Positions 4,002-38,223 of a stretch of 57,263 nucleotides of DNA are shown piece by piece. The notes below the pieces were generated by a model. It had not been told where the DNA came from. It ran no database searches and was given only the letters and a program-made list of their open reading frames with translations. Every line of letters begins with the position of its first letter. Positions within the stretch are counted from its first letter, which is position 1. The stretch lies in NCBI GenBank assembly GCA_963575745.1, contig CAUYUJ010000039.1:62001-119263 (forward strand), in the 5' to 3' direction. Source of the stretch: Prorocentrum cordatum (taxonomy: Eukaryota). A program made the translations under genes and the position numbers.

Positions 4002-4037
4002 TGAAGGCTTTAGCCAATTCTTCGCGACGAGGGTCCC

Positions 4038-11961: not shown

Positions 11962-13211
11962 CCGACCGTCGCCGTACTAGTGCAGGGTCCCGAATGGACC
12001 GCTCCTTGTGGTCTCTTGAGCCCGTTCTCAGGCCGTCTTAGGGGCCCCCTGGGCCGTCTTTGGGCCCTCTGGGGCAATCTTGGTCCCTCTGTGCAATATG
12101 TTTGTGGGCGGTCGGGGGGCCCTGTTGGGCTGTGTTGGGGCCCTCTTGGGCCGACAGGAGCCCCTCTGGAGGCCCTCTTGGAGCGTCTTGGGGCTGTCCT
12201 GGGCTCCTGTTGGGACGTCCTGGGCTCGTTTTGGGATGACCCTCGTTGGCGCCGATTTGGCCATCTTGGAGTGATGTCGGTGGCTTTTTCGGCTGTCCCG
12301 AGCGCTCTGGAGACAGAGAGGCCGAGCATGCGAAAATGGCGCCGGAACCCAAGAAACACGGAGAAGTCTTGCCTCCCGGGGGCCTCCTGGGAGTCGCCTT
12401 CGGGGAGCTCGTTGGGCCATCGAGTGGCCATCTTGGGTACCTCTTGGGTCGTCCCAGGCCCCTCGTGGTCGTCTTGAGGCGCTCGTCGGGCCTCCAGGGC
12501 CATCCTGGGGCCGTCCTGGGCCGTCCTTGAGCGCTACAGAACCAGCCTCGCCGACCGCACCCGAAGTTGTCGGGGGCGGCCAAGAGGGGGGTGATGACCA
12601 GGGGGGCTGTGGATCTCATGGCGGGGGCCATAATATTGTAGTGGCCTGCGGCCAGTGCCGCCGATCCGGGGCGCTTTTGATGCTACTGTTGGGAGGGACA
12701 ATGACGACGAGGAGGAGGGAGGAGGAGGAGGAGGAGGAGGGGGAGGAGGAAGAGGAGGCTGATGATGACGATGACGATGACGGTGAAGTTTACGATCATG
12801 TAGTGGCCTTCGGCCAATGCCGCCACCGTGCCTGGGTGGTGTCGGAGGGCTCTTCAGTGTTTGTTGGGATCTCGTGGTAGGTCTCTCGGGTGCCTCATGG
12901 GTACACTCTTGAGGCATCCTTGGGGCCGTTGTGGGGACCATCGGGGCCACTTTCGAGAATCTTGGGGGCCTCTTCTGGGCTTCTTGGGTCCTGCTAGGGA
13001 CCTCTGGGGACACTCTTGGGGGCCTCCTGGGGCCTCCTGGGGGCTGTGGAGGCCGAGGGCTCGAGATTTCCGTCTGGGTTCCCCGTCCGGCTCCCCTCTT
13101 GGAGCCGTCCTGAGAGCCTCTGGGGCCGTATTGTTTCTTTTTGGGGGGCAGTCTTGGGGCTCTCTTGGGCCGTCTTGGGGCCATTTTGGGAGCCTCTTGG
13201 GCCGTGTTGGG

Positions 13212-13432
13212 CCGTACATGGACATTATATTCGAACCCTGTGGCCCAAGATGCCCCCCCGAACCCCCGAATTTAATATTGATGGCGTGGCGACGGGGGGG
13301 GCGTGAGTGGACAGAAATATTCGAACCCCAAAGCACCGCCTTTGCTGAGATCAACATTGATGTCGGGGGCGCGGGGGTGATTCAGAATCTCCCTCGAATG
13401 TGTGAGGGTTCGAATATATTGTCCATCTACTG
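13212..13432 (+). mobile_element. 221-bp TIR element (MITE), left boundary copy
   Basis: 28-bp TIRs with 3 mismatches: CCGTACATGGACATTATATTCGAACCCT versus the reverse complement CAGTAGATGGACAATATATTCGAACCCT. An internal third motif TGGACAGAAATATTCGAACCC. Apparently identical to 27896-28116. Confidence 0.85.
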
Positions 13433-14269
13433 TCCATGGCAAGGTTTGTGTAGTTCTGCACATTGCTCAAAGCGACCCTCATAAATCCAAGATCCCATGA
13501 CTTGGGGGAGAAGGTGGAGGAGGAAGCGAAGGATGAGGAGGATAAGGATCAGGATGAGGAGGAAGAGGAGGATGGGGATGAGGATGAGGATGCGGAGGAC
13601 AGGAACAGTAGTGAGAGACAGGAGGAATGAGAAGGATGAGGATGGGAGGTGGTGGGGAGGAGGATCAAGCGGTGGAGCGTGGAGGATTTCTAAGCAGGTG
13701 CGGGAGGAGTGAATCAGAGGAGGCAGGGACGAAGAGGCGATGGGAGGGGAAGAGAGGGCATGGGGAGGAGGGGAGGGGAGGGGAAGGGAACGGGGAGGGG
13801 AGGGGATCGGAGGGGGCCGAAAGAGGGATGGAAGGAGACGGTCCTGTGAAGGGCTGCCTTGGGCCGTCCTGGAGGCCTCGGAGGCCCCATGGATTACCGG
13901 AGCTGCGGGAAGTTCGATTTTGCCTGCCCAGGGTTACATGTTGCTGTCGTCCCACCGTCCACAACAGACATCGGGTGCATTATCGAAAGCTGGAGACGGT
14001 CCTGTGGAGGGCTGCCTTGAGCCATCCTGAGGCCTCCGAGGCCCCATCGTTCCCCAGGCTGCGAACGGGTCGGTTTATTCCTACCCAGGGTGATATAGTC
14101 AGCGCATACACATGATTGCGATTTTTTCTCTGCACATGCTGTTCCTTCGTTCGCCGTCCTTGGGTCCTGGGTTACCACGCTCCCTTCATCGTCGCCATGG
14201 CAGATGGATAGGCGCTTGCTCGTGATATTGATGGGGGCGTTGTCTGGTAGGCTTTCAGGAAAGCAGCTG

Positions 14270-14740
14270 GCGAGGCAGCCAACAAGGCAGCCAACGAAGC
14301 AGCCTACGAGGCACCCAGCGAGGCGGCCAACGAGGCCTCCGACGAGGCAGCCCGCGGGGCAGCCAAAAAAACAGCCGTCGAGGCAACTGGCGAAGCAGCC
14401 AGCGAGGCGGCCAACGAGGTAGCCCACGAGGCACGAGGCAGCCAACGAGGTAGCCCACGAGGCAGCCAGCCAGGCAGCGAGGCGGTCGACAGGGCAGCCA
14501 GCAAGGCAACCAACGAGGCCACCGAGCACAAGCAACCAACGAGGCAGCCAACGAGACAACCAACGAGGCAGCCAACGAGACAACCAACGAGGCAGCCAAC
14601 GAGACAGCCAACAAAGCAGCCAACGAGGCAGCCATCGAGGCAGCCAGCAAGGCAGCCAACAGGCAGCCGAGCAGGCAGGCCACCAGGAACCAGGCAGCCA
14701 ACGATACAGCCACAGGGCAGCCGACGAAGCAGCAGCGAGG
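14270..14740. repeat. ~12-bp GAGGCAGCCAAC minisatellite (unit 1; shorter array at ~21545-22000 in unit 2)
   Basis: Direct reading. Confidence 0.85.
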
Positions 14741-14983
14741 GGGGATCCCAAAATGGATCCCCCTTGCGCACCTGCGCGCGCATGTCGCGCAGATCTAGAC
14801 CATTTTCACGGACAGAAGCCACCCGAACCTATGGCGCTACTAATGGAAAAAAGGGCATCCGAGATATAGGATGCCCTCGCTCACTGGACTGCATCCATTT
14901 TCAGGATGCCCCCGTTGGAAGGATGACCGCAGCGCTTTCTGGACCGAGCGCATTTGGCCCGTCGTTGTCTCCACAGCCGGAGA

Positions 14984-16203
14984 ATGTCGCCGAAATCCTT
15001 CACTCATGTATCTGCCGACGAGCACGTCGCAATGCGCCGCTTGCATGACAGCGGCATGGGCGTCAAGAGGATCGCCGCGGCCTTGAGCCGCTCCACGGAC
15101 ACCGTCTCGAAGCATTTGTTCAAAAAGAACACGACCAAGAAGTCCAAGGGCCGCCCGAAGCATTCCATCCGCACCCCCAAAGGGTTTCTCGCTGCCCAGC
15201 GCGCTTACAAGAAGCTTCTGAAGTCCTCGGGCGGCACAAAGGAAGTGACGGCAGCCATGCTGAAGTCCGAGATGAAGTTGAAATGCGACATCAAGACAGT
15301 GCGCCGCGCGTTTGCTGAGAATGGCTACCAGTTCCGCCCGCTGTACGAGAAGCCTGACCTTTCTGATAGGGACAAGAAGGAGCGCCTGCAGTGGGCCCGC
15401 GAGCACAAGCACCGGAGCCCCAGCCAGTGGTCACAGTACGTCCACGCGTGCATGGACAACAAGGTGTTCCAGGTGCTGCCCAATGCGAAGTACAGGAAGG
15501 TGGCGGCAAAGCGCAAGGTTCGCGGGGTGTACAGGAAGCGCAAGCGGGACTTCTCCGTGGGCCACGTCAAGCCGAGCAACCCTAAGGTTCTCGGGCTGGC
15601 GCAAATCGGAGACCGCGCCGCGGCCACTCAGCGCCAGGCCAGTGGCCGACGGCGCGCTCTGATTTGGCTCGCCCCCAGGTTCTGAAGCAGAGTTCGGGCA
15701 AGGGCTCCGTGACCATCGCGTGCGCCATCGGCGCGGGCAAGGTGTTGATGTGGCACCAGGTGGTCGGCAGGTGGAACGCCGCAGCCGCGGGGCGAATGTA
15801 CTCGGGGGCGCTCCAGCCCGCTTTGAAGAGGGCCTACCCTTCCGTGCGCGGCAAGTTCCGCGTCATGGAAGACAACGACCCCACGGGCTACAAATCTCGC
15901 TCGGGCATGGCGGCGAAGAAGTCCGCTGGCATCCAGACGTTGGACTTGCCGAAGCGGTCCCCTGATCTGATGCCGCTTGATTTCGCCTTCTGGGCCAATC
16001 TGAACAAGCGCATGAGGGGGCAGGAGAAGGACTGGCCCGCGAGCAAGACGGAGACGCGGGCGCAGTACCTGGCCCGGCTGCGCCGCACGGCGTTGGCGAC
16101 GCCTTCTGAGTACATCCACAGCATCATGGGCAGCCTGCGCAAGCGCTGCGGCTTGTTGGTCGAGGCGAAGGGCGGCCACTTCGCCGAGGGCGGTGGGAAC
16201 TGA
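14984..16203 (+). CDS. IS630/Tc1/mariner transposase, DD35D, 375 aa; exons 14984-15586 and 15679-16203
   Basis: N-terminal HTH (GVKRIAAALSRSTDTVSKHL), KPDLSDRDKKERLQWAREH linker, and catalytic motifs CMDNKVF / MEDNDP / SPDLMPLDFAFW. C-terminal RCGLLVEAKGGH. A 92-nt phase-0 GT-AG intron joins the two ORFs in frame. Confidence 0.9.
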
Positions 16204-16526
16204 GCGCGCGCGCGGTTTCCTCGGGCGGCCGCGGCGCGATTCGCGGCGGGCCAGGGCGGCGGGCGACCGCGGCGCAGACCGCAGCGGGCCGGGGCGGCGG
16301 GCGGCCCGTAGCGGCCCGCGCCTCGGTTGACCCGCGCGAGCGACGTGGGGCGCGGGAAGGGAGCCAGTCGCGGTCCACGATCAAGACCAATCCGTGCGTC
16401 CACCGCCCTTGCGGCTACAGGGCCAGCAGACGTAGTCGAAAGTACATGATCTTGGCATTCTGATTCTGTCCGCCGAGGCCCCCCAGGCGCCAGCGCCCTG
16501 GCGGCCCCAGAGAGCCCCTCGCACGA

Positions 16527-16752
16527 AACATGCAGCAAAAAACATAGTGAACCAACAGTGAACCAACAGTGAACCAACAGTGAACCTTCGTAAAAACCAT
16601 AGTGAACCTCGAATTCTATTTAAAAAAGAGTAGGGAATTTCTTTTTTATAGAAAATTGAGGTTCACTATGTAATTTGCAATGGTTCACTGTTGGTTCACT
16701 GTTGGTTCACTGATGGTTCACTGTAGGTTCAGCGTGGTTTTTATGCATGTTT
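16527..16752. promoter_or_regulatory. Nested palindrome of 11-bp iterons around an AT-rich hairpin; putative replication origin / protein-binding array
   Basis: (AGTGAACCAAC)x3 + AGTGAACC, then CATAGTGAACCTC, an AT-rich stem-loop, GAGGTTCACTATG, and four GGTTCACTG units at 11-bp spacing. Outer AAACATGCA/TGCATGTTT. The structure is certain; the function is inferred. Confidence 0.6.
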
Positions 16753-17083
16753 GCACATGCCCAACAATGCCGCGCGAGTGGCATCCATGGACAGGATCCG
16801 CCGACCCCGCCGAGAGGTGCAGGGGGTGCGCCAGGCGCGCCAAGTGCGCCGCGTGCGACAGGTGCGCGGCACGCGACAGGTGGGCCACACGCGCCAGGTG
16901 AACGGGGCGCGCCCAAGTGCGACAGGTGCGCAGACGACGCCAGGTGCAACGAGCTCCCCAACTGAGCAGCCAGGCGGCGGTTTACGATGCCCCCGAAGAC
17001 CCCGACGGTCCGCATTGCGTTTTTCTCTGTAGCCTGTCGGCTCAGCGGGGCGGGGGCTGGCCCTGGCCGTGTCGCGCCGGGGG

Positions 17084-18618
17084 ATGGCGCTCTCGGTGGA
17101 CAGGCCAGAGAAGCGCCGCAGGCTCGTGGGGAAGCAGAGCCAGCAGACGGCGCTCCTCGAGCACGTCGTCGGCGAGGAGAACAGGAACGCCTCGCGGGAG
17201 GTCTACTTGGTGACTCTGCCGCACACGGACAAGGAGGGTCTCAGAGCGCCAGCGGCTTTCTCGCGGGAGGAGGTCCGCGACGCTTTCCTGGATTGCTGCG
17301 GCGCTCCGGACGCCGACCCCGCGTGGCTCGCAAGCCACCGCGGGCAGGGGGCCGCGCCCGTCGGGGTCAAGAAGCTGGTGGTATTCAAAGAATACCACGC
17401 GCCAGTGGCAGGCGTCCGGCGGGCGCACTACCACGTGGCCTTGCACCTGGGCAAGAAGAGCAAGTTCCTGACCGTGAAGCGGGCCTTGCTCAACAGGTAC
17501 CAACTCGCCTCTCACTGGTCCTGCAGCCACGACGGGTACTGGTCGGCCGTCGGGTACTGCGCGAACGCGACGCCCAAGAAGCCGCGGAGCGCCCTGGACG
17601 TTGACTACATGGCTTGGCCCGCGGACCACCCGCCGCTGTCCGCGGCGAAGAGGGAGCCGACGACCGCCCGCGCTTTGGAGAAGCGCAGGACCGCGCGGGA
17701 GCAGGTCGAGGGCGAGAAGGGGAAGCCAGAGCCTCGCGTCGAGGAAGTGGACCTGTGGCCGATAGTGGTCAGGTCTGGGATCCGGAATACTCCGGACGAC
17801 CCCACGCAGTGCGCAAGTTGATGGCGTACGCTAAGACGTCCTGCTCGCACAAGGTGGTTGCCTGGATGTTCAAGAACGAGCACGTGCTGGAGAAGATCAT
17901 CGACAAGGCCTGGGCGTGGGAGAACGTGGGCAACTTCCTCGAAGACGCGACGAAGCCCGTCATGCAACAGTTCAAGGAGGCCTTGCGGACGCCTTGCGTT
18001 TGCGGCGGCCGCTGGTTGCACCACGTCCGCGAGAGCCTGTCGATGAATCGCACCGACGTCCCCGACCTCTGCAGCAGTACCTTGATGTCCCTGAAGCACG
18101 GTCGGTCCGAGGCGGCCCCGGTGGTCAGCTTGGCTGGGCGCTTCGGCGGAGAGGGGAAGTCTCTTCTCTTCTCGGCGGTGCGGCCGCTGTTCGGCGGTGA
18201 GCACGTGTAGGAGAGGCCAGGCGGGGGGCAGTTTTGCCTCCACGGCTTGGACAAGGCCAAGGCCGCGGTGCTGGACGAGTGGATGTTCATCGATGAGGAC
18301 CTCCCCCTGTCCATCCAGCTCCTGTGGCTGGAGGGCAAGCCCGTGCCCATCACCATGCCCCAGAACCAGCACGTCGGGCACAAGGTGTACATGGGGTCCG
18401 CCCCGATTTTTGTCACCTGCCCCGAGACGGCGCTGGCGGGCCTCTCGTCCGAGTCGTCGCAGCGCCCGCAGGGGCAGGCTGGCATGCTGCTCCGGCGGCT
18501 GAAACTGTATTTATTCACTGTGCCGATTCCCAAGCCGCCGGCCCCGAAGCTAGTGCCGTGCCCGCGCTGTTTCTCGACCCTCGTCACAAGCGAGGCTCTT
18601 AAGTTCAAGCCCAAGTAG
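17084..18618 (+). pseudogene. Rep (HUH + SF3 helicase), disrupted copy
   Basis: Near-identical to 24357-25892, but has a 1-bp deletion in a C-run at ~17800 and CAG>TAG at 18208-18210. Confidence 0.85.
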
Positions 18619-19029
18619 TCCTGCCGCGTGCGATTGGGGTCGCTGCGCGCAGACATCATCACCATCGTCGTCATCATCACTGTCGCCAGTATCGTCGTTG
18701 CCACACCTCGTTGCCCCATCGGGAACTCCACGGAAGGCCCCGATGGCCGAGTCCGCATGCCGCGCCCCGACAATTTCGGCAGACCCCTAGAGCGTTGCAC
18801 GACCGCCACGGGCACGTCGTGCTTCTGGCCCGGCACGACTACGACCATCATCGTCGGCGCTGTCAGTGCTGTCGCCTCTGGGTCCGTCCGTCAGTCCGCG
18901 TGGAGCCTCTTTGGGGGTCGTCTTGGAGCCACCGTGGATCTTCGTAAGGCCCCCCTGGAGGCCCTCTCGGGCGAGGTCTACGCCAGAGGCCCCCTGTTGC
19001 ATTCCATTCGATTCCATTCATTCCCAACT

Positions 19030-20370
19030 CCTTCGCACGCCCCCCACTCCTTCCCAGTCCTCGCCACTCCCCTGCAGTCGTCCGCACCCCACCGCAGTCA
19101 GCCAACAAAAACTCCGAAACCTCTCATTCCTCCACGCCCCTCCGCACTCTTCCCAACTCCTCCACGCCCTTCCGCACTCCACCCGAAACCTCCGCAACCG
19201 CCCCACTCCCCCCCACCCCTCCGCACTCCTCCCGAACCTTCCGCAACCGTCCCATTCCTCCAGACCCCTCCGCAGTCTTCCCAGAACCTCCGCAATCCTG
19301 CCATTCTCTCCGCCCCTCCGCACTCTTCCCGAACATCCGCAACTCTCCCATTCCTCCACACCCCTCCGCATTCTTCCCCAAACCTTCGCAACCCTCCCAT
19401 TCCCCCACATCCCTCCGCACCCCTCCCGAAACCTCTGGAGCCCTTCCAATTCTCTCCGCCCCTCCGCACTCCTCCCGAACATCCGCAATCCGTCCCACTC
19501 CCCCCCACCCTGCGCACTCCTCCCAAACCTTCCGCGACCGTCCCAGTCCTCCACGCCCCCTCCGAACTCCTCCCGAAATCTCCGCAATCCTGCCATGTCT
19601 CTCCACCCCTCCGCACTCCTCCCAAAACCTCTACAACCCTCCCATTCCTCCACATCTCTCCGCACTCCTCCCGACACCTTCGCAACCCTTTGATCCTTCC
19701 ACATCCCTCCGCACTCCTCCCAGACATCCGCACCTCCCCCATTCCTCCAGACCCCTCCGCACTCCTCCCGAAACCTCCACAACCCTCCCGTTCCTCCACA
19801 TCCCTCCGCACTCCTCCCGAAACCTCCGGAGCCCTGCCATGTCTCCCCACTCCCCGCACTCCTCCCGGGACATCCGCACCTCCCACATTCCTCCACGCCC
19901 CTCCGCACTCCTCCCGAAACTTCCGCAACCCTCCCATGCCTCCACATCCCCTCGCACTCCTCCCAAACCTTGTGAAACCGTCCCATTCCTCCCCACTCCT
20001 CCGCACACCTCCCGAAAGAGACCTCCGCAACCCTCCCATTCCTCCACGCCCTTCCGCACTCCTCCCGACACCTTCGCAACCCTTTCATCCTTCCACATCC
20101 CTCCGCACTCCTCCCAAACCTTCTGCAACCGCCCCATTCCTCCCCACCCCTTCCGCACTCCTCCCGAAAGAGATTTCCTCCACCCTCCCATTCCTCCCCA
20201 CCCATCCGCACTCCCCCCGAAACCTCCGCAACCCTCCCAGTCCTCCCCACGCCTCCGCACTCCTTCCTCACCTCCCACAACCGTCCCATTTCCCCTCAAC
20301 CCTCCGCACTCCTCCCAATCCTGTGGGGTTCTCCCATTCCTCCAGACCCTTCCGCACTCCTCCTGAAACG
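19030..20370. repeat. ~49-bp C-rich minisatellite (CCCTCCGCACTCCTCCCGAAACCTCCGCAACCCTCCCATTCCTCCAC...)
   Basis: Direct reading. The counterpart at ~26290-27552 is shorter. Confidence 0.9.
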
Positions 20371-20553
20371 TCTCACCCCTTGCCCCAGCGTCTTACGCCC
20401 AGGAGCGGAACCTCCATCTTCCTCCTATTCCTTCTCCTCGTTCTCCTCCCCCCTCCTCCCTCTTGTTCCTCATTCCTCCTTGAGGGTTGTGGGTGATGAT
20501 GATGCTGCTGCTGATGATGCTGATACTGATGATGGTGATGATGGTGATGATGG

Positions 20554-20588
<35 letters not shown>

Positions 20589-22244
20589 GTGGAGATGATG
20601 CCGCCGATGAGGGCGATTCTGATTGTAATGCTGACGTTTGTGGCATCTGTACAGTCTCCTCCTCTCCCTCCTCCCTACTCCCACCTGCAAAACAAGATGG
20701 GGGACCTCCATGGCAAGGTTTGTGTAGTTCTGCACATTGCTCAAAGCGACCCTCATAAATCCAAGATCCCATGACTTGGGGGAGAAGGTGGAGGAGGAAG
20801 CGAAGGATGAGGAGGATAAGGATCAGGATGAGGAGGAAGAGGAGGATGGGGATGAGGATGAGGATGCGGAGGACCAGGAACAGTAGTGAGAGACAGGAGG
20901 AATGAGAAGGATGAGGATGGGAGGTGGTGGGGAGGAGGATCAAGCGGTGGAGCGTGGAGGATTTCTAAGCAGGTGCGGGAGGAGTGAATCAGAGGAGGCA
21001 GGGACGAAGAGGCGATGGGAGGGGAAGAGAGGGCATGGGGAGGAGGGGAGGGGAGGGGAAGGGACCGGCGAGGGGAGGGGATCGGAGGGGGCCGAAAGAG
21101 GGATGGAAGGAGACGGTCCTGTGAAGGCCTGCCTTGGGCCGTCCTGGAGGCCTCGGAGGCCCCATGGATTACCGGAGCTGCGGGAAGGTCGATTTTGCCT
21201 GCCCAGGGTTACATGTTGCTGTCGTCCCACCGCCCACAACAGACATCGGGTGCATTATCGAAAGCTGGAGACGGTCCTGTGGAGGGCTGCCTTGAGCCAT
21301 CCTGAGGCCTCCGAGGCCCCATCGTTCCCCAGGCTGCGAACGGGTCGGTTTATTCCTACCCAGGGTGATATAGTCAGCGCATACACATGATTGCGATTTT
21401 TTCTCTGCACATGCTGTTCCTTCGTTCGCCGTCCTTGGGTCCTGGGTTACCACGCTCCCTTCATCGTCGCCATGGCAGATGGATAGGCGCTTGCTCGTGA
21501 TATTGATGGGGGCGTTGTCTGGTAGGCTTTCAGGAAAGCAGCTGGCGAGGCAGCCAACAAGGCAGCCAACGAAGCAGCCTACGAGGCACCCAGCGAGGCG
21601 GCCAACGAGGCCTCCGACGAGGCAGCCCGCGGGGCAGCCAAAAAAACAGCCGTCGAGGCAACTGGCGAAGCAGCCAGCGAGGCGGCCAACGAGGTAGCCC
21701 ACGAGGCACGAGGCAGCCAACGAGGTAGCCCACGAGGCAGCCAGCCAGGCAGCGAGGCGGTCGACAGGGCAGCCAGCAAGGCAACCAACGAGGCCACCGA
21801 CACAGCACCCGGCAAGGCAACCAACGAGGCAGCCAACGAGACAACCAACGAGGCAGCCAACGAGACAGCCAACAAAGCAGCCAACGAGGCAGCCATCGAG
21901 GCAGCCAGCAAGGCAGCCAACAGGCAGCCGAGCAGGCAGGCCACCAGGAACCAGGCAGCCAACGATACAGCCACAGGGCAGCCGACGAAGCAGCAGCGAG
22001 GGGGGATCCCAAAATGGATCCCCCTTGCGCACCTGCGCGCGCATGTCGCGCAGATCTAGACCAATTTCACGGACAGAAGCCACCCGAACCTATGGCGCTA
22101 CTAATGGAATAAAGGGCATCCGAGATATAGGATGCCCTCGCTCACTGGACTGCAGCCATTTTCAGGATGCCCCCGTTGGAAGGATGACCGCAGCGCTTTC
22201 TGGACCGAGCGCATTTGGCCCGTCGTTGTCTCCACAGCCGGAGA

Positions 22245-23464
22245 ATGTCGCCGAAATCCTTCACTCATGTATCTGCCGACGAGCACGTCGCAATGCGCCG
22301 CTTGCATGACAGCGGCATGGGCGTCAAGAGGATCGCCGCGGCCTTGAGCCGCTCCACGGACACCGTCTCGAAGCATTTGTTCAAAAAGAACACGACCAAG
22401 AAGTCCAAGGGCCGCCCGAAGCATTCCATCCGCACCCCCAAAGGGTTTCTCGCTGCCCAGCGCGCTTACAAGAAGCTTCTGAAGTCCTCGGGCGGCACAA
22501 AGGAAGTGACGGCAGCCATGCTGAAGTCCGAGATGAAGTTGAAATGCGACATCGAGACAGTGCGCCGCGAGTTTGCTGAGAATGGCTACCAGTTCCGCCC
22601 GCTGTACGAGAAGCCTGACCTTTCTGATGGGGACAAGAAGGAGCGCCTGCAGTGGGCCCGCGAGCACAAGCACCGGAGCCCCAGCCAGTGGTCACAGTAC
22701 GTCCACGCGTGCATGGACAACAAGGTGTTCCAGGTGCTGCCCAATGCGAAGTACAGGAAGGTGGCGGCAAAGCGCAAGGTTCGCGGGGTGTACAGGAAGC
22801 GCAAGCGGGACTTCTCCGTGGGCCACGTCAAGCCGAGCAACCCTAAGGTTCTCGGGCTGGCGCAAATCGGAGACCGCGCCGCGGCCACTCAGCGCCAGGC
22901 CAGTGGCCGACGGCGCGCTCTGATTTGGCTCGCCCCCAGGTTCTGAAGCAGAGTTCGGGCAAGGGCTCCGTGACCATCGCGTGCGCCATCGGCGCGGGCA
23001 AGGTGTTGATGTGGCACCAGGTGGTCGGCAGGTGGAACGCCGCAGCCGCGGGGCGAATGTACTCGGGGGCGCTCCAGCCCGCTTTGAAGAGGGCCTACCC
23101 TTCCGTGCGCGGCAAGTTCCGCGTCATGGAAGACAACGACCCCACGGGCTACAAATCTCGCTCGGGCATGGCGGCGAAGAAGTCCGCTGGCATCCAGACG
23201 TTGGACTTGCCGAAGCGGTCCCCTGATCTGATGCCGCTTGATTTCGCCTTCTGGGCCAATCTGAACAAGCGCATGAGGGGGCAGGAGAAGGACTGGCCCG
23301 CGAGCAAGACGGAGACGCGGGCGCAGTACCTGGCCCGGCTGCGCCGCACGGCGTTGGCGACGCCTTCTGAGTACATCCACAGCATCATGGGCAGCCTGCA
23401 CAAGCGCTGCGGCTTGTTGGTCGAGGCGAAGGGCGGCCACTTCGCCGAGGGCGGTGGGAACTGA
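22245..23464 (+). CDS. IS630/Tc1/mariner transposase, DD35D, copy 2; exons 22245-22847 and 22940-23464
   Basis: Same motifs and intron as copy 1. Differences seen are K>E, A>E, R>G and R>H; the catalytic residues are intact. Confidence 0.9.
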
Positions 23465-23787
23465 GCGCGCGCGCGGTTTCGTCGGGCGGCCGCGGCGCGA
23501 TTCGCGGCGGGCCAGGGCGGCGGGCGACCGCGGCGCAGACCGCAGCGGGCCGGGGCGGCGGGCGGCCCGTAGCGGCCCGCGCCTCGGTTGACCCGCGCGA
23601 GCGACGTGGGGCGCGGGAAGGGAGCCAGTCGCGGTCCACGATCAAGACCAATCCGTGCGTCCACCGCCCTTGCGGCTACAGGGCCAGCAGACGTAGTCGA
23701 AAGTACCTGATCTTGGCATTATGATTCTGTCCGCCGAGGCCCCCCAGGCGCCAGCGCCCTGGCGGCCCCAGAGAGCCCCTCGCACGA

Positions 23788-24025
23788 GACATGCAGCAAA
23801 AAACATAGTGAACCAACAGTGAACCAACAGTGAACCAACAGTGAACCAACAGTGAACCTTCGTAAAAACCATAGTGAACCTCGAATTCTATTAAAAAAAA
23901 GAGTAGGGAACTTCTTTTTTAATATAAATTGAGGTTCACTATGTAATTTGCAATGGTTCACTGTTGGTTCACTGTTGGTTCACTGATGGTTCACTGTAGG
24001 TTCAGTATGGTTTTTATGCATGTTT
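23788..24025. promoter_or_regulatory. Iteron palindrome, copy 2 (one extra left-arm iteron)
   Basis: (AGTGAACCAAC)x4 + AGTGAACC on the left arm, otherwise as 16527-16752. Confidence 0.6.
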
Positions 24026-24356
24026 GCACATGTCCAACAATGCCGCGCGAGCGGCATCCATGGACAGGATCCGCCGACCCCGCCCAGAGGTGCAGGGGGC
24101 GCGCCAGGCGCGCCAAGTGCGCCGCGTGCGACAGGTGCGCGGCACGCGACAGGTGGGCCACACGCGCCAGGTGAACGGGGCGCGCCCAAGTGCGACAGGT
24201 GCGCAGACGACGCCAGGTGCAACGAGCTCCCCAACTGAGCAGCCAGGCGGCGGTTTACGATGCCCCCGAAGACCCCGACGGTCCGCATTGCGTTTTTCTC
24301 TGTAGCCTGTCGGCTCAGCGGGGCGGGGGCTGGCCCTGGCCGGGTCGCGCGGGGGG

Positions 24357-25892
24357 ATGGCGCTCTCGGTGGACAGGCCAGAGAAGCGCCGCAGGCTCGT
24401 GGGGAAGCAGAGCCAGCAGACGGCGCTCCTCGAGCACGTCGTCGGCGAGGAGAACAGGAACGCCTCGCGGGAGGTCTACTTGGTGACTCTGCCGCACACG
24501 GACAAGGAGGGTCTCAGAGCGCCAGCGGCTTTCTCGCGGGAGGAGGTCCGCGACGCTTTCCTGGATTGCTGCGGCGCTCCGGACGCCGACCCCGCGTGGC
24601 TCGCAAGCCACCGCGGGCAGGGGGCCGCGCCCGTCGGGGTCAAGAAGCTGGTGGTATTCAAAGAATACCACGCGCCAGTGGCAGGCGTCCGGCGGGCGCA
24701 CTACCACGTGGCCTTGCACCTGGGCAAGAAGAGCAAGTTCCTGACCGTGAAGCGGGCCTTGCTCAACAGGTACCAACTCGCCTCTCACTGGTCCTGCAGC
24801 CACGACGGGTGCTGGTCGGCCGTCGGGTACTGCGCGAACGCGACGCCCAAGAAGCCGCGGAGCGCCCTGGACGTTGACTACTTGGCTTGGCCCGCGGACC
24901 ACCCGCCGCTGTCCGCGGCGAAGAGGGAGCCGACGACCGCCCGCGCCTTGGAGAAGCGCAGGACCGCGCGGGAGCAGGTCGAGGGCGAGAAGGGGAAGCC
25001 AGAGCCTCGCGTCGAGGAAGTGGACCTGTGGCCGATAGTGGTCAGGTCTGGGATCCGGAATACTCCGGACGACCCCCACGCAGTGCGCAAGTTGATGGCG
25101 TACGCTAAGACGTCCTGCTCGCACAAGGTGGTTGCCTGGATGTTCAAGAACGAGCACGTGCTGGAGAAGATCATCGACAAGGCCTGGGCGTGGGAGAACG
25201 TGGACAGCTTCCTCGAAGACGCGACGAAACCCGTCATGCAACAGTTCAAGGAGGCCTTGCGGACGCCTTGCGTTTGCGGCGGCCGCTGGTTGCACCACGT
25301 CCGCGAAAGCCTGTCGATGAATCGCATCGACGTCCCCGACCTGTGCAGCAGCATCTTGATGTCCCTGAAGCACGGTCGGTCCGAGGCGGCCCCGGTGGTC
25401 ACCTTGGCTGGGCGCTTCGGCGGAGAGGGGAAGTCTCTTCTCTTCTCGGCGGTTCGGCCGCTGTTCGGTGGTGAGCACGTGCAGGAGAGGCCAGGCGGGG
25501 GGCAGTTTTGCTTCCACGGCTTGGACAAGGCCAAGGCCGCGGTGCTGGACGAGTGGATGTTCATCGATGAGGACCTCCCCCTGTCCATCCAGCTCCTGTG
25601 GCTGGAGGGCAAGCCCGTGCCCATCACCATGCCCCAGAACCAGCACGTCGGGCACAAGGTGTACATGGGGTCCGCCCCGATTTTTGTCACCTGCCCCGAG
25701 ACGGCGCTGGCGGGCCTCTCGTCCGAGTCGTCGCAGCGCCCGCAGGGGCAGGCTGGCATGCTGCTCCGGCGGCTGAAACTGTATTTATTCACTGTGCCGA
25801 TTCCCAAGCCGCCGGCCCCGAAGCTAGTGCCGTGCCCGCGCTGTTTCTCGACCCTCGTCACAAGCGAGGCTCTTAAGTTCAAGCCCAAGTAG
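24357..25892 (+). CDS. rep: Rolling-circle replication initiator (Rep): HUH endonuclease + SF3 helicase, 511 aa
   Basis: Motif I VYLVTLP; motif II FKEYH...AHYHVAL; candidate motif III AVGYC; Walker A GRFGGEGKS; Walker B AVLDE; B' LLWLEGKPV; motif C PIFVTC; Arg finger LLRRL. Confidence 0.85.
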   Translation: MALSVDRPEKRRRLVGKQSQQTALLEHVVGEENRNASREVYLVTLPHTDKEGLRAPAAFSREEVRDAFLDCCGAPDADPAWLASHRGQGAAPVGVKKLVVFKEYHAPVAGVRRAHYHVALHLGKKSKFLTVKRALLNRYQLASHWSCSHDGCWSAVGYCANATPKKPRSALDVDYLAWPADHPPLSAAKREPTTARALEKRRTAREQVEGEKGKPEPRVEEVDLWPIVVRSGIRNTPDDPHAVRKLMAYAKTSCSHKVVAWMFKNEHVLEKIIDKAWAWENVDSFLEDATKPVMQQFKEALRTPCVCGGRWLHHVRESLSMNRIDVPDLCSSILMSLKHGRSEAAPVVTLAGRFGGEGKSLLFSAVRPLFGGEHVQERPGGGQFCFHGLDKAKAAVLDEWMFIDEDLPLSIQLLWLEGKPVPITMPQNQHVGHKVYMGSAPIFVTCPETALAGLSSESSQRPQGQAGMLLRRLKLYLFTVPIPKPPAPKLVPCPRCFSTLVTSEALKFKPK

Positions 25893-26289
25893 TCCTGCCG
25901 CGTGCGATTGGGGTCGCTGCGCGCAGACATCATCACCATCATCGCCATCATCACTGTCGCCATTATCGTCGTTGCCACACCTCGTTGCCCCATCGGGAAC
26001 TCCACGGAAGGCCCCGATGGCTGACTCCGCATGCCGCGCCCCGACAATTTCGGCAGACCCCTAGAGCGTTGCGCGACCGCCACGGGCACGTCGTGCTTCT
26101 GGCCCGGCACGACTCCGACCGTCACCGTCGACGATGCCAGTGCTGTCGCCTCTGGGCCCGTCCGTCAGTCCGCGTGGAGCCTCTTTGGGGGTCGTCTTGG
26201 AGCCCCCGTGGATCTTCGTAAGGCCCCCTGGAGGCCCTCTCGGGCGAGGTCTACGACAGAGGCCCCCCGCTGCATTCCGTTAAATTCCA

Positions 26290-27552
26290 TTCACTCCCAA
26301 CTCCTCCGCAGGCCCCCCACTCCTTCCCAGTCCTCGCCACTCCCCTGCAGTCGTCCGCACCCCACCGCACTCCGCCAACAACAAATTCCGAAACCTCTCA
26401 TTCCTCCACGCCCCTCCGCACTATTCCCAACTGCTCCACGCCCTTCCGCACTCCACCCGAAACCTCCGCAACCGCCCCACTCCCCCCCACCCCTCCGCAC
26501 TCCTCCCGAACCTTCCGCAACCGACCCATTCCCCCAGACCCCTCCGCAATCTTCCCAGAAACTCCGCAATCCTGCCATTCTTCTCACCCCTCCGCACTCT
26601 TCCCGAACATCCGCAACTCTCCCATTCCTCCACACCCCGCCGCATTCTTCCCAAAACCTCCGCAAGTCTCCCATTCCCCCACATTCCTCCGCACTCCTCC
26701 CGAAACCTCCGGAGCCCTTCGAATTCGTTCCGCCCCTCCGCACTCCTCCCGGACATCCGCGATCCTTCCCATTCCCCCCCACCCTGCGCACTCCTCCCAA
26801 ACCTTCCGCAACCGTCCCAGTCCTCCACACCCCTCCGAACTCTTCCCGAAACCTCCGCAACCCTTTTATCATTCCACATCCCTCTGCACTCCTCCCAGAC
26901 ACCCGCACCTCCCCCATTCCTCCAGGCCCCTCCGCACTCCTCCCGAAACCTCCACAACCGTCCCATTCCTCCACATCCGTCCGCACTCCCCCCGAAACCT
27001 CCGGAGCCCTTCCATGTCTCCCCACTCCCCCGCACTCCTCCCGGGACATCCGCACATATCCGCACCTCCCCCATTCCTCCACACCCCTCCGCACTCCTCC
27101 CGAAACTTCCGCAACCCTCCCTGCCTCCACATCCCCTCGCACTCCTCCCAAACCTTGTGAAACCGTCCCATTCCTCCCCACTCCTCCGCACACCTCCCGA
27201 AAGAGACCTCCGCAACCCTCCCATTCCTCCACGCCCTTCCGCACTCCTCCCGACACCTTCGCAACCCTTTCATCCTTCCACATCCCTCCGCACTCCTCCC
27301 AAACCTTCTGCAACCGCCCCATTCCTCCCCACCCCTTCCGCACTCCTCCCGAAAGAGATTTCCTCCACCATCCCATTCCTCCATACCCATCCGCACTCCC
27401 CCCGAAACCTCCGCAACCCTCCCAGTCCTCCCCACGCCTCCGCACTCCTTCCTCACCTCCCACAACCGTCCCATTTCCCCTCAACCCTCCGCACTCCTCC
27501 CAATCCTGTGGGGTTCTCCCATTCCTCCAGACCCTTCCGCACTCCTCCTGAA
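26290..27552. repeat. ~49-bp C-rich minisatellite (unit 2)
   Basis: Direct reading. Confidence 0.9.
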
Positions 27553-27738
27553 ACGTCTCACCCCTTGCCCCAGCGTCTTACGCCCAGGAGCGGAACCTCC
27601 ATCTTCCTCCTATTCCTTCTCCTCGTTCTCCTCCCCCCTCCTCCCTCCTGTTCCTCATTCCTCCTTGAGGGTTGTGGGTGAAGATGATGCTGCTGCTGAT
27701 GATGCTGATACTGATGATGGTGATGATGGTGATGATGG

Positions 27739-27779
<41 letters not shown>

Positions 27780-27895
27780 GTGGAGATGATGCCGCCGATG
27801 AGGGCGATTCTGATTGTAATGCTGACGTTTGTGGCATCTGTACAGTCTCCTCCTCTCCCTCCTCCCTACTCCCACCTGCAAAACAAGATGGGGGA

Positions 27896-28116
27896 CCGTA
27901 CATGGACATTATATTCGAACCCTGTGGCCCAAGATGCCCCCCCGAACCCCCGAATTTAATATTGATGGCGTGGCGACGGGGGGGGCGTGAGTGGACAGAA
28001 ATATTCGAACCCCAAAGCACCGCCTTTGCTGAGATCAACATTGATGTCGGGGGCGCGGGGGTGATTCAGAATCTCCCTCGAATGTGTGAGGGTTCGAATA
28101 TATTGTCCATCTACTG
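27896..28116 (+). mobile_element. 221-bp TIR element (MITE), right boundary copy
   Basis: Apparently identical to 13212-13432 and in the same orientation. Confidence 0.85.
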
Positions 28117-30741: not shown

Positions 30742-31830
30742 CTACGCACTCAAATGCCATGCATTAACTTGCTGTTTCCACGTGCGCGCTGCTCCGCCAT
30801 CCGGGCGGAAGAAAGCAGCAACGCGCTCGCGTGAGCCCGCAGCAGACACACAATTCTTCATGACCATGTGGCTCCAAGTTTGTCTCGGCCTGCCCCGCTG
30901 CCGCGGCCCGTCCGGTCGCTTCAATTCGATGCCACCAGGGCAGAATATTGAGCAGCGCACTGGGTCAGAGTCTGCCCGCCTGGCAAGATGTCCCATGAAT
31001 TCCATCTGTCGCCTGCAGATGTCTTCGCTCAGCGGCCCCTGTCCGGCCATACTCAAAACGGTTGCGTTAGACACTCTGCTCAGAAATGACGGCGATACTC
31101 GCAAGATTTTTCTGAGGCAACGGGCTTAGAAGGCGTCCAACCTCCTCCTTTCCAATTTGTTCATACACGCGGCGAACAAACAATATTGCAGCTTAGACAC
31201 AATGCACGCATTGAATATTGCTATCTTCCGCCTGCGACTCAGTGATGAATGTGTCCATACCGCATGCAGCGCCTTGAACTCACTGGAAGCAGCCCCTATC
31301 CGCCGGCTGAGCTCCGCTGCGATCCGGCCGTGAGTTGTCAGGCATGTTCCAAGATATATCAACGATTCCTTGCACGTTATTGCCATCCCAGAAGAGTTCT
31401 TGACCACGGCATTAGACCTCACCCGGAGCATTTCCACGTTCTGCCAATTGAGCTTGAGGCCATAATGCTCCCCACACTTCTCGACGCACTGCATAAGAGT
31501 CTCGACGGTCCCGGGGTTGCTGCCGACGAGAGGGGTATCGTCCGCGTAGACAAGCTCGCTGATGACGTGCTCCCGGACGGCCTCCCCGATCTGGTTCTGC
31601 AGGCACTTGCGCGCGTCGCTTAGCAGCGTGGTCATGATTATCGTGAAAAGGAATGGCGATAGCGGGCACCCCTGGCAGATGCCATAAGTCTGGGTGTGCT
31701 CCGCGGATTCGACTGCGAAGTCCGTCACCACGAATTTGCGGTCCTTGTAGATCGAGGAGACCATATCTACAAATTTACTTGGGCACCCAAACCGCTTCAG
31801 GGACACAGACAGAGCTTCAGGCTTCACTAT
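30742..31830 (-). pseudogene. 5'-truncated non-LTR retrotransposon (LINE, RTE-like) reverse transcriptase
   Basis: GICQGCPLSPFLF, LVYADDT, YGLKLN, YLG, ELSRRIGAA and C-terminal RGRPRQTW. An in-frame stop at 31126-31128 splits the two listed ORFs. Confidence 0.9.
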
Positions 31831-38095: not shown

Positions 38096-38192
38096 TAGTT
38101 TGGTGATGACGTGGATGATGATGGTGATGATGATGATCTGCTGATGATGATGATGATGCTGATGATACTGATACTGATACTGATGATGATGT

Positions 38193-38223
<31 letters not shown>

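What the first reader, a model, noticed from the sequence alone, without database searches (positions are those of the whole stretch)
14984..25892. Candidate new mobile element class: CRESS-like HUH-SF3 Rep + Tc1/mariner transposase + iteron origin, no capsid
Seen: each unit has, co-oriented within ~3.6 kb, an intact DDD transposase, an iteron palindrome and a Rep with HUH and SF3 motifs. There is no capsid-like ORF and no TIRs around the transposase, and the units are head-to-tail. Known: Helitrons use HUH + SF1 (PIF1) helicase; Replitrons have HUH without helicase; CRESS viruses have HUH + SF3 plus a capsid; Tc1/mariners normally carry only a TIR-flanked transposase. Inference: a self-replicating plasmid- or satellite-like element that amplifies by rolling circle and may use the DDD enzyme as an integrase. 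I know of no described family with this gene pair.
Basis: partly seen in the sequence, partly recalled or inferred. Interest (0 to 1): 0.92.

Follow-up and report, generated by a model that had tools for sequence, protein, structure and literature searches.

The report
Dinoflagellate Rep-plus-transposase mobile element family
A dinoflagellate genome carries tandem copies of a small element pairing a virus-like DNA-replication initiator with a mariner-type transposase and a repeat-studded palindrome, and the same trio recurs in many marine sequences, so it looks like an undescribed kind of mobile DNA.

Summary
The window matches Prorocentrum cordatum (a 100%-identical protein record). It has two head-to-tail 7.2-7.3 kb units. 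Each carries a Tc1/mariner-type DD35D transposase split by a 92-bp GT..AG insert, a ~245-bp palindrome with 5-6 iterons per arm at 11-bp spacing, and a 511-aa Rep. Rep is intact only in unit 2.

A pLDDT-91 model shows a geminivirus-like HUH nuclease domain (Z~10) joined to an SF3 helicase (Z 15-17). The whole protein is nearest AAV Rep68 and parvovirus NS1. Neither Pfam nor PDB sequence searches detect it.

Of 80 metagenome loci with Rep relatives (33-83% identity), 22 also carry the transposase, always co-oriented. That includes 11 of 14 loci with at least 1.9 kb downstream. The palindrome sits in the same place with lineage-specific iterons. Rep and transposase distances co-vary (Mantel 0.76, p=2e-4). 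No third conserved ORF or capsid was found.

Other P. cordatum contigs carry further copies, one an array of at least four units. Relatives occur in Symbiodiniaceae.

Replication from the palindrome and transposase-mediated integration remain inferred. Eight literature searches found no description.

The parts
13209..13432 (+). S copy 1: 224-bp MITE-like element with 22-bp terminal inverted repeats, flanked by TA. It abuts the left border of the array.
   Evidence: It is 99.6% identical to 27893-28116. The TIR pattern occurs 4 times in the window against 0 expected.
13433..20706 (+). Unit U1 (7274 bp)
14984..15586 (+). Transposase copy 1, exon 1 (HTH domains and first catalytic D)
15587..15678 (+). 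92-bp GT..AG insert (putative intron), copy 1
   Evidence: identical to the copy-2 insert
15679..16203 (+). Transposase copy 1, exon 2 (second and third catalytic D), stop included
16521..16754 (.). Iteron palindrome, copy 1 (5+5 exact AGTGAACC iterons, AT-rich centre). Limits are approximate.
17084..18618 (+). Rep copy 1, pseudogene (1-bp deletion near 17799/17800; stop at 18208-18210)
18757..20496 (+). Proline-rich tandem-repeat stretch (open frame, low complexity). It is the most divergent part between the units.
20707..27892 (+). Unit U2 (7186 bp)
22245..22847 (+). Transposase copy 2, exon 1: HTH_38 and HTH_Tnp_Tc3_2 domains, first catalytic D (MDNK)
   Evidence: PF01498, 36.2 bits, cut-off 31.5
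22848..22939 (+). 92-bp GT..AG insert. Relatives are continuous across it. One public gene model (P0245) splices exactly here.
22940..23464 (+). Transposase copy 2, exon 2: EDNDP and SPDLMPLDF motifs (DD35D), stop included
23782..24027 (.). Iteron palindrome, copy 2: 6+5 exact AGTGAACC iterons at 11-bp spacing around an AT-rich centre with a small apical hairpin
24357..25892 (+). Rep copy 2, intact, 511 aa. HUH nuclease domain about residues 32-192 (E103, H115-x-H117, Y158). SF3 helicase about 193-511 (Walker A GGEGKS 355-360).
26031..27551 (+). Proline-rich tandem-repeat stretch, copy 2
27893..28116 (+). S copy 2: MITE-like element abutting the right border of the array

Best explanation
This is a member of a large, apparently undescribed family of nuclear mobile elements of dinoflagellates. 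One unit consists of three parts. The first is an origin-like palindrome with two inverted arrays of 5-6 lineage-specific iterons at 11-bp spacing around an AT-rich centre. The second is a Rep protein with an HUH-Y1 nuclease domain fused to an SF3 helicase. The third is a co-oriented DD35D Tc1/mariner-type transposase. There is no capsid gene.

Shown: the anatomy; the folds; the conserved linkage, order and co-divergence of the two genes; purifying selection on Rep; dispersal to several P. cordatum contigs; and recurrent head-to-tail arrays.

Inferred: Rep oligomers bind the iteron arrays, melt the AT-rich centre and nick with Tyr158. This starts rolling-circle or rolling-hairpin copying that yields circles or head-to-tail concatemers. 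The transposase, or recombination through shared repeats such as the S MITE, puts the copies into chromosomes. The window holds a two-unit array, with one Rep already dead, circularly permuted relative to the palindrome.
For: Rep fold:
- The AlphaFold model from 44 sequences has pLDDT 91 and pTM 0.77.
- Foldseek against PDB gives AAV2 Rep68 at E 1.6e-8 over the full length, then papillomavirus E1, SV40 LT and B19 NS1.
- VIA alignment places residues 32-192 on the wheat dwarf virus Rep nuclease (Z 10.2, rmsd 2.7, 112 of 119 residues) and on TYLCV Rep (Z 9.7, 108 of 108). Residues 193-511 match AAV Rep40 and E1 at Z 15-17.
- E103, H115, Y158, K166 and the Walker A loop are invariant in 44 sequences; H117 is at least 90% conserved.

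Transposase:
- Pfam HTH_Tnp_Tc3_2 scores above its cut-off.
- DD35D spacing holds in 15 of 15 sequences.
- A relative's model (pLDDT 88.5) matches the full-length Mos1 transposase at E 3.6e-12.

Linkage:
- 22 of 80 metagenome loci with Rep also carry the transposase, with 0 on the opposite strand.
- 11 of 14 loci with at least 1900 bp downstream of Rep have it.
- An array follows the transposase end in 11 of 11 loci where both are seen: 63-531 bp in ten and 1279 bp in L025. It lies 84-871 bp before Rep in the 18 loci with a both-arm palindrome.
- Mantel correlation of Rep and Tnp distances is 0.76, p=2e-4, over 14 loci. The two trees share 6 of 11 splits, including three major clades with support 0.94-1.0.

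Selection:
- 29 of 41 full-length Rep matches are uninterrupted ORFs.
- dN/dS is 0.19 between the window Rep and L001.

Only two shared genes:
- All-against-all clustering of 1761 ORFs found only Rep and Tnp frames shared between loci.
- 51 other ORFs gave no Pfam family apart from one pentapeptide match.

Tandem or circular forms:
- L033 reads Rep-Tnp-Rep.
- L020, L024 and L032 read palindrome-Rep-Tnp-palindrome.
- L041 and L052 have terminal overlaps of 123 and 27 bp.
- A public P. cordatum gene model of 3516 aa strings together at least four Tnp-Rep units.
- The window array borders are not at the palindromes, and the outer borders equal the inner U1/U2 junction. A contig in run X3 reads U-end, S, U-start.

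Hosts: P. cordatum, Symbiodinium pilosum and Cladocopium goreaui by source names. DNA-encoded spliced-leader relics lie 5' of Rep and of Tnp in L024 and 5' of Rep in L010.
Against: - No direct evidence exists for extrachromosomal circles, nicking, iteron binding by Rep, or transposase activity.
- Tandem gene arrays are ordinary in dinoflagellate genomes, and contigs with terminal overlaps can come from arrays rather than circles.
- No sequence motif in the palindrome centres is enriched beyond shuffles (best 7-mer in 6 of 20 centres; shuffle maximum 7). No conserved nick site is therefore identified.
- In the 26 iteron consensus units, about 17 by my reading contain CAGT. From recall, that is the terminal motif of Tc1-type transposon ends, which fits transposase recognition as well as Rep binding.
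- Three of 16 loci with informative flanks have Rep without the transposase: L047, L059 and L068.
- Some Rep relatives are fused to SAM or DEK_C domains, which hints at domesticated branches.
- Two tree conflicts have high support on the Rep side: the placement of L041 and the L024/L025 pair.
Confidence: 0.6

Rival explanations
1. It is a Tc1/mariner-superfamily cut-and-paste transposon. Its long, multi-site terminal inverted repeats are the iteron arms. The 'palindromes' are abutted ends of neighbouring copies or of excised circles. Rep is an accessory or passenger gene, for example one that boosts copy number.
For: - The iteron arms are inverted repeats that bracket Rep+Tnp in L007 and L042.
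- About 17 of 26 iteron consensus units contain CAGT. From recall, that is the terminal motif of Tc1-type ends.
- The transposase is under conserved DD35D constraint in 15 of 15 sequences.
- The iteron 8-mer of L012, L013 and L057 equals the terminal 8 nt of the S MITE inverted repeat in the window.
Against: - The window array does not begin or end at an iteron arm. Its borders lie 1.5 kb upstream of Tnp and 2 kb downstream of Rep, and coincide with the inner unit junction.
- Each unit has exactly one complete palindrome, with 96-137 bp between the innermost iterons in the 20 palindromes measured. The AT-rich centres have GC 0.32-0.48 across those lineages, against 0.46-0.64 for whole loci. 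That argues for one functional unit, not arbitrary DNA between two ends.
- Five to six sites per arm at 11-bp spacing is, from recall, unlike any described Tc1/mariner end, which has one or two sites per end.
- No half-palindrome next to unrelated DNA was seen away from a contig end.
Confidence: 0.22
2. It is a pair of domesticated host genes kept, like many dinoflagellate genes, in tandem arrays. It is not mobile at present.
For: - Tandem arrays are normal for dinoflagellate genes (review PMC11453091, passages read).
- A spliceosomal-type insert lies in the transposase.
- Spliced-leader relics occur in L010, L024 and L074.
- Rep is under purifying selection.
- Some relatives are fused to SAM or DEK_C domains.
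Against: - Copies lie on at least 9 P. cordatum contigs, and one copy here is a fresh pseudogene.
- Many deeply divergent lineages were recovered, 80 loci at 33-83% identity to the window Rep, each with its own iteron sequence. That is the pattern of competing selfish replicons.
- Deletion derivatives keep the palindrome next to a 5'-truncated Rep: L057, L058, L066 and L075.
- 2466 clusters at 50% identity is very large for a host gene restricted to one group.
Confidence: 0.1
3. It is an endogenised fragment of a capsid-bearing ssDNA virus (parvovirus-like or CRESS-like). The capsid gene was lost or lies elsewhere, and the transposase is unrelated cargo.
For: Nearest folds and language-model neighbours are parvovirus NS1, AAV Rep68 and CRESS Reps. 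The unit size of 4.2-5.4 kb in metagenome loci is, from recall, parvovirus-like.
Against: - No capsid or any third conserved ORF appears in 80 loci.
- Neither Rep nor Tnp has a relative in IMG/VR viral contigs.
- The transposase co-diverges with Rep.
Confidence: 0.05
4. Chance nesting of an unrelated Rep insertion and a mariner copy, followed by a local 7.3-kb duplication.
For: Only two units are seen in this window, and they are 98.2% alike at aligned bases.
Against: The same co-oriented trio recurs in 22 metagenome loci at 30-52% transposase identity to the window copy, as well as on other P. cordatum contigs. The two genes have congruent trees.
Confidence: 0.02

Closest known systems
Parvovirus NS1 / AAV Rep68 replicons
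   Same: - HUH-Y1 nuclease plus SF3 helicase in one roughly 500-aa protein. This is the best whole-protein fold match and the nearest named language-model clusters.
- A long palindrome carrying tandem repeats.
- From recall: the AAV palindrome repeats are Rep-binding sites, genome size is 4-6 kb, and integrated or episomal AAV forms head-to-tail concatemers with one palindrome per junction.
   Different: - No capsid gene; a Tc1/mariner transposase is present instead.
- No Pfam Parvo_NS1 hit.
- Iterons are 11-bp units, not tetranucleotides.
- The host is a dinoflagellate nucleus.
- There is no evidence of linear hairpin-ended genomes.
CRESS-DNA viruses and geminivirus Rep
   Same: The nuclease domain superposes on WDV and TYLCV Rep (Z about 10). 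There is an SF3 helicase, and lineage-specific iterons lie near the origin.
   Different: - Rep is about 200 aa longer, with no sequence-level match to Viral_Rep models.
- No capsid.
- No conserved nonanucleotide found.
- Not present in IMG/VR.
Tc1/mariner (ITm) transposons, including IR/DR types such as Sleeping Beauty
   Same: The transposase has paired HTH domains and an RNase-H-like DDD catalytic core, with a fold match to Mos1, SB and SETMAR.
   Different: - It carries a second, larger gene (Rep).
- The spacing is DD35D.
- There are no simple TA-flanked terminal inverted repeats at the borders of the integrated array.
- The inverted repeats have 5-6 sites per arm.
Helitrons and Replitrons
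   Same: They are eukaryotic mobile elements built on an HUH Rep.
   Different: Helitrons use a Y2 Rep fused to an SF1B Pif1 helicase. Replitrons have a Rep without any helicase (PMC10288648, passages read). Here there is a Y1-type Rep with an SF3 helicase plus a separate DDD transposase.
Replicon-plus-integrase hybrids (Polintons/Mavericks; Teratorn; Spiroplasma plectroviruses with IS-type transposases), all recalled
   Same: The concept is the same: a self-replicating module combined with a DDE/DDD enzyme for chromosomal integration.
   Different: The replication modules differ (protein-primed PolB, herpesvirus, phage Rep with capsid). None pairs an HUH-SF3 Rep with a Tc1/mariner transposase in a eukaryote.

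Membership tests
Tc1/mariner (ITm) transposase | N-terminal paired HTH DNA-binding region | tested here: met
   PF01498 HTH_Tnp_Tc3_2 at 36.2 bits (cut-off 31.5) and PF13936 at 28.8 bits (cut-off 27) on window 22245-22946. PF01498 matches 12 of 16 sequences in alignment A2.
Tc1/mariner (ITm) transposase | RNase-H-like catalytic domain with a DDE/DDD triad at fixed spacing | tested here: met
   DD35D in 15 of 15 sequences; L074 has A at the third position. The model of relative L008 matches full-length Mos1 at E 3.6e-12 and the SB catalytic domain at E 2.4e-9. Pfam DDE_3 alone stays under its cut-off (best 26.3 against 28.6 bits).
Tc1/mariner transposon (the element, not the enzyme) | Element bounded by terminal inverted repeats with a TA target duplication | tested here: inconclusive
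   The array borders (13433 and 27892) equal the inner unit junction and abut TA-flanked S MITEs. By eye there is no convincing inverted repeat at the U ends. The iteron arms are inverted repeats but are internal to the array.
HUH-SF3 Rep (parvovirus NS1 / CRESS Rep architecture) | HUH nuclease fold with metal-binding HUH and a catalytic Tyr on the adjacent helix | tested here: met
   Residues 32-192 superpose on WDV Rep (Z 10.2, rmsd 2.7, 112 of 119) and TYLCV Rep (Z 9.7). H115 and Y158 are invariant and H117 is at least 90% conserved; Y158 lies in helix 152-160. Catalysis itself was not tested.
HUH-SF3 Rep (parvovirus NS1 / CRESS Rep architecture) | C-terminal SF3 helicase with a Walker A loop | tested here: met
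   AAV Rep40 Z 16-17 and E1 Z 15.5 over residues 193-511. GGEGKS is invariant. I read Walker B (VLDEW) and motif C (PQN) off the alignment by eye. Relative P0097 carries PF00519.
CRESS-DNA virus or parvovirus (as a virus) | Capsid gene | tested here: not met
   No third ORF family is shared among 80 loci plus the window unit. 51 inter-gene ORFs gave no capsid-type Pfam family. The window's repeat ORFs had no Pfam hit.
CRESS-DNA virus | Small circular genome with a stem-loop origin bearing a conserved nonanucleotide | tested here: inconclusive
   2 of 80 contigs have terminal overlaps, which fit a circle or a tandem array. A long hairpin-forming palindrome is present, but no motif is enriched in its centre.
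Helitron | Y2 Rep fused to an SF1B (Pif1) helicase | tested here: not met
   The helicase part matches SF3 enzymes only. Definition from PMC10288648, passages read.
Replitron | Rep transposase without a helicase domain | tested here: not met
   An SF3 helicase is present. Definition from PMC10288648, passages read.

The most novel reading that the evidence does not exclude
A new class of eukaryotic mobile DNA: a capsid-less, parvovirus/CRESS-like episome of dinoflagellate nuclei. It replicates from its iteron palindrome by Rep-initiated rolling-circle or rolling-hairpin synthesis, and it uses a dedicated Tc1/mariner DD35D transposase as its integrase. It would be still active, present as free circles as well as chromosomal concatemers, and diversified into many incompatibility-like lineages with private iterons.
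Probability: 0.35. Interest if true: 0.95.

Novelty: categorically new. Interest (0 to 1): 0.87.

Why it matters
It would add a new architecture to the short list of eukaryotic mobile-element classes: an HUH-SF3 replication initiator coupled to a DDD transposase, with a plasmid-like origin and no capsid. Three consequences follow.

- It would link the Rep-encoding ssDNA virus and plasmid world to Tc1/mariner transposons, a bridge of the Polinton kind that bears on how small DNA viruses and transposons exchange modules.
- The family is large, with 2466 clusters at 50% identity. By the source names available it sits in dinoflagellates, which include bloom-forming and coral-symbiotic lineages with huge, repeat-rich genomes whose expansion is poorly understood.
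- A compact origin, initiator and integrase set that works in dinoflagellate nuclei could become a vector for organisms that are very hard to transform.

Tried and rejected
- Sequence-level family assignment of Rep: no Pfam family, whole or in halves. No PDB sequence match with the single protein or the 44-sequence profile. Only structure comparison worked.
- IMG/VR viral contigs: no relative of Rep or of the transposase.
- Earlier findings of this scan: nothing by sequence or by place.
- Conserved nick-site motif in palindrome centres: 7-mer enrichment no better than shuffles. GTAAAA/TTTTAC next to the inner iterons in 8 of 20 is only a hint.
- Expression: no RNA holder listed among the 24 runs. 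The four runs laid were all contigs. No joint skipping the 92-bp insert was listed, and 11 joints were not shown.
- Copy number from run depth: rejected, because the 'million letters' refer to contigs and the summed depths are not copy numbers.
- Spliced-leader relics in the window: none at up to 4 mismatches.
- Further Rep or Tnp fragments elsewhere in the window: none.
- Terminal inverted repeats at the ends of U: only a weak 6-9-bp resemblance by eye, not pursued.
- Other ORFs in the units: the Gly/Glu-rich ORF (20902-21390), the repeat ORF on the minus strand (21169-22044) and the Pro-rich ORF gave no credible family.
- Supplements of the papers were not opened. The TE tables of the P. cordatum genome paper (PMC10666404, seen only as a search listing) might list this repeat.

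Full report
**What is in the window**

A self-comparison shows that 13433-20268 repeats at 20707-27549 with 95.4% identity over 6881 columns, gaps included. A 224-bp piece, 13209-13432, recurs at 27893-28116 with 99.6% identity.

Junction reading gives the layout: host | S | U1 (13433-20706) | U2 (20707-27892) | S | host. The two units differ by 128 substitutions in 7154 aligned bases, which is 98.2% identity. Most 300-bp bins are 99-100% alike. Divergence and indels sit mainly in a proline-rich tandem repeat (18819-20006).

The organism is Prorocentrum cordatum, judged from a 100%-identical protein record. No whole genome is held for this window.

**The transposase**

In each unit two ORFs together make one Tc1/mariner-type enzyme: 22245-22946 and 23009-23464 in U2.

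- The first ORF carries HTH_38 and HTH_Tnp_Tc3_2, the latter at 36.2 bits against a cut-off of 31.5.
- Reading 22940-23461 gives the EDNDP and SPDLMPLDF motifs.
- In an alignment with 14 intact relatives from metagenome loci, the window pieces 22245-22847 and 22940-23461 abut exactly where the relatives are continuous.
- The 92 bases 22848-22939 therefore behave as an insert. It begins GT, ends AG, is followed by G, and is identical in both units.
- One public gene model (P0245) splices exactly there. Two others (P0243, P0244) use a shorter intron. No RNA data could be examined.
- The triad spacing is DD35D in 15 of 15 sequences; L074 has Ala at the third position.
- A model of the relative in L008 (34-sequence alignment, pLDDT 88.5) matches the full-length Mos1 mariner transposase (E 3.6e-12), the Sleeping Beauty catalytic domain (E 2.4e-9) and SETMAR.

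**The Rep**

The 511-aa ORF 24357-25892 is intact. The unit-1 copy has a 1-bp deletion near 17799/17800 and a C>T stop at 18208.

Sequence methods see nothing. There is no Pfam family. There is no PDB sequence match with the protein or with a 44-sequence profile.

The family is nevertheless large.
- A word-indexed search returned 256 hits with E<=1e-3 among 8000 scored candidates. The 120 listed hits all have E<=8.8e-98.
- An exhaustive profile search returned 2466 cluster representatives at E<=1e-3, 1403 at E<=1e-10 and 530 at E<=1e-30.

The AlphaFold model (pLDDT 91, pTM 0.77) resolves the question.
- Foldseek puts AAV2 Rep68 first over the whole length (E 1.6e-8). Papillomavirus E1, SV40 LT, B19 NS1 and a redondovirus Rep follow.
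- Among predicted viral structures, parvovirus NS1 leads (E 5.8e-13).
- In the VIA second look, residues 193-511 match AAV Rep40 and E1 at Z 15-17.
- Residues 32-192 match the wheat dwarf virus Rep nuclease (Z 10.2, rmsd 2.7, 112 of 119 residues) and TYLCV Rep (Z 9.7, 108 of 108).
- Invariant residues fit an active Y1 HUH enzyme. E103 and H115 (with H117 at >=90%) sit on adjacent strands, and Y158 sits on helix 152-160. The GGEGKS P-loop is invariant.
- Language-model neighbours are two unnamed or 'replication-associated' eukaryotic clusters and then Parvo_NS1 clusters.

The Rep is real. It is a very divergent branch, nearer in overall build to parvoviral NS1/Rep68 than to typical CRESS Reps.

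**The palindrome**

AGTGAACC occurs 21 times in the window, all in the two palindromes, against 1.3 expected. The copies are spaced 11 bp apart: 5+5 exact copies in unit 1 and 6+5 in unit 2. They surround an AT-rich centre with a small apical hairpin. As single-stranded DNA, 23780-24030 folds into one long hairpin (dG -94.4 kcal/mol, z -20.8).

**Is the trio a chance neighbourhood?**

A scan of metagenome contigs with the Rep alignment returned 80 loci at 33-83% identity.

- tblastn with the window's transposase pieces found relatives (26-53% identity) in 21 of these loci. A profile search found 22. Every hit lies on the Rep strand.
- Most contigs are too short to hold both genes. Among the 14 with at least 1900 bp downstream of Rep, 11 have the transposase there. 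L019 has it upstream. L059 and L068 lack it, as does L047 with 7.5 kb upstream.
- Iteron arrays with 11-bp spacing (12 bp in some loci) in inverted arrangement recur, but with a different sequence in nearly every lineage.
- Where the end of the transposase and an array are both on the contig, the array follows it in 11 of 11 loci: by 63-531 bp in ten, and by 1279 bp in L025.
- In the 18 loci with a both-arm palindrome and a Rep start, the palindrome ends 84-871 bp before Rep.
- Centres are AT-rich, GC 0.32-0.48, against 0.46-0.64 for whole loci.

The order is cyclic: palindrome, Rep, transposase, palindrome.
- L020, L024 and L032 show the next palindrome after the transposase.
- L033 shows Rep-Tnp-Rep.
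- L041 and L052 have terminal overlaps of 123 and 27 bp.
- Unit lengths are 4.2-5.4 kb, against about 7.3 kb here, where tandem repeats fill the Rep-to-Tnp gap.

**Co-divergence and selection**

For 14 loci with both genes, Rep and transposase p-distances correlate (Mantel Spearman 0.76, permutation p=2e-4).

FastTree trees share 6 of 11 splits. These include three major clades supported at 0.94-1.0 in both trees: {L007, L019, L020}, {L008, L021, L046} and {L018, L037, L042, L052}. The placement of L041 and of the L024/L025 pair conflicts. L033 was left out as a near-duplicate of L032. L062 and L074 were dropped for low coverage.

Kinship of hosts could contribute to this correlation. Physical adjacency is the primary evidence.

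Of 41 loci with a full-length Rep match, 29 have an uninterrupted ORF. dN/dS between the window's Rep and L001 (83% identity) is 0.19.

**No third gene**

All-against-all BLASTP was run on 1761 stop-to-stop ORFs from the 80 loci and one window unit. It gave shared clusters only over the Rep and transposase spans, counting other frames and antisense.

Fifty-one ORFs from inter-gene and flanking regions of 16 loci had no Pfam family at E<=1e-3, apart from one pentapeptide-repeat match. The window's proline-rich and other repeat ORFs have none either.

**Spread and hosts**

Protein records place close copies on at least nine P. cordatum contigs. One 3516-aa gene model reads Tnp-Rep-Tnp-Rep through at least four units, so it marks a second and longer array.

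A Rep relative is named from Symbiodinium pilosum and a transposase relative from Cladocopium goreaui.

DNA-encoded spliced-leader relics lie 5' of both genes in L024, 5' of Rep in L010, and in tandem in L074. This marks those contigs as dinoflagellate nuclear DNA. From recall of how such relics arise, it also implies that the mRNAs are trans-spliced.

Near-identical DNA is held by 20 public runs of 15 studies, mostly marine metagenomes.

**Array borders**

S is a 224-bp element with 22-bp inverted ends, found 4 times against 0 expected. Each copy is flanked by TA, and both copies sit in the same CCG-TA-CTG context.

The outer borders of the array are the same positions as the inner U1/U2 junction, so U is a discrete unit. 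The array is circularly permuted relative to the palindrome.

In three runs contigs join the end of S to the start of U. In run X3 one 617-bp contig reads U-end, S, U-start (table 8, record 16). Units separated by S therefore exist elsewhere, and the S-less U1/U2 junction here looks derived.

Three routes could produce this layout: unequal crossing-over between S copies followed by excision of the middle S; recombination of a U+S circle with a chromosomal S; or a long target duplication. I could not separate them.

**How it most likely works**

By analogy with HUH-SF3 initiators, I propose the following. All of this is inference.

- Rep binds the two inverted iteron arrays, opens the AT-rich centre and nicks with Tyr158.
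- Five to six sites per arm would suit a hexameric helicase on each arm.
- The resulting circles or head-to-tail concatemers enter chromosomes through the transposase or through recombination.

The permuted array borders, the single complete palindrome per unit and the AT-rich centres across lineages favour an origin over abutted transposon ends.

Against this, about 17 of 26 iteron consensus units by my reading contain CAGT. From recall, that is the terminal motif of Tc1-type ends. No conserved nick motif was found either. The iterons may therefore serve the transposase, or both proteins. Which protein reads the iterons is the key open question.

**Comparison with what is known**

It is not a Helitron, which has a Y2 Rep with an SF1B helicase. 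It is not a Replitron, which has no helicase (PMC10288648, passages read).

It lacks the capsid that defines CRESS viruses and parvoviruses, and it is absent from IMG/VR.

The enzyme is a Tc1/mariner transposase, but the element does not have that family's simple TA-flanked TIR structure at its integrated borders.

Eight full-text searches found no description of an HUH-SF3 Rep linked to a Tc1/mariner transposase. Keyword passages of a 2024 review of dinoflagellate genomics found none either (PMC11453091). Subscription journals and supplements were not covered.

**Verdict**

The finding is real. The anatomy and the conserved module are well supported. The mechanism is a reasoned proposal.

Noticed in passing
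window 13209-13432 and 27893-28116: S is a 224-bp MITE-like element with 22-bp inverted ends. Each copy is flanked by TA in the same CCG-TA-CTG context, and together they bracket the two-unit array. In laid runs its depth is 20-45 times that of the unit, so it is a high-copy family. Its terminal 8 nt equal the iteron 8-mer of loci L012, L013 and L057.
   Followed up: partly
L024 762 and 4358; L010 1244; L074 1440: DNA-encoded dinoflagellate spliced-leader relics lie 5' of Rep and of the transposase, in tandem in L074. They suggest that mRNA-derived copies were recycled into these elements.
   Followed up: partly
proteins P0303, P0312, P0316, P0319, P0418, P0441: A branch of the Rep family is fused to C-terminal SAM domains and/or an N-terminal DEK_C domain. 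These may be domesticated or chromatin-tethered forms.
   Followed up: no
protein P0247 (3516 aa) and P0243/P0244: Public P. cordatum gene models string several Tnp-Rep units, plus the upstream Asn/Glu/Ala-rich repeat, into single giant 'genes'. This is an annotation artefact, but it reveals another array of at least four units.
   Followed up: partly
L057, L058, L066, L075, L078: These short contigs have the palindrome directly next to a 5'-truncated Rep, or to a Rep 3' end with no transposase. They look like deletion derivatives that keep the palindrome.
   Followed up: no
window 4014-5207 (+) and 31129-31995 (-): An Exo_endo_phos ORF (E 7.4e-10) and a reverse-transcriptase fragment (RVT_1, E 1.8e-15) lie here. 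They are retroelement remnants, so the array sits in repeat-rich DNA.
   Followed up: no
window 38190-38354 (-) vs L014 1773-1939: A stretch downstream of Rep in L014 shows 71% nucleotide similarity to a window region far from the array. This is unexplained.
   Followed up: no
iteron units of 26 loci: About 17 of 26 iteron consensus units share a CAGT core followed by a variable 5-6 nt, for example ACAGTGAACC here. From recall this resembles the terminal CAGT of Tc1-type transposon ends.
   Followed up: partly
window 20500-20700 and 27690-27790: A (CAT/ATG)n-type microsatellite giving long His or Met runs lies at the 3' end of each unit. This bin had by far the highest depth in all four laid runs.
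   Followed up: no
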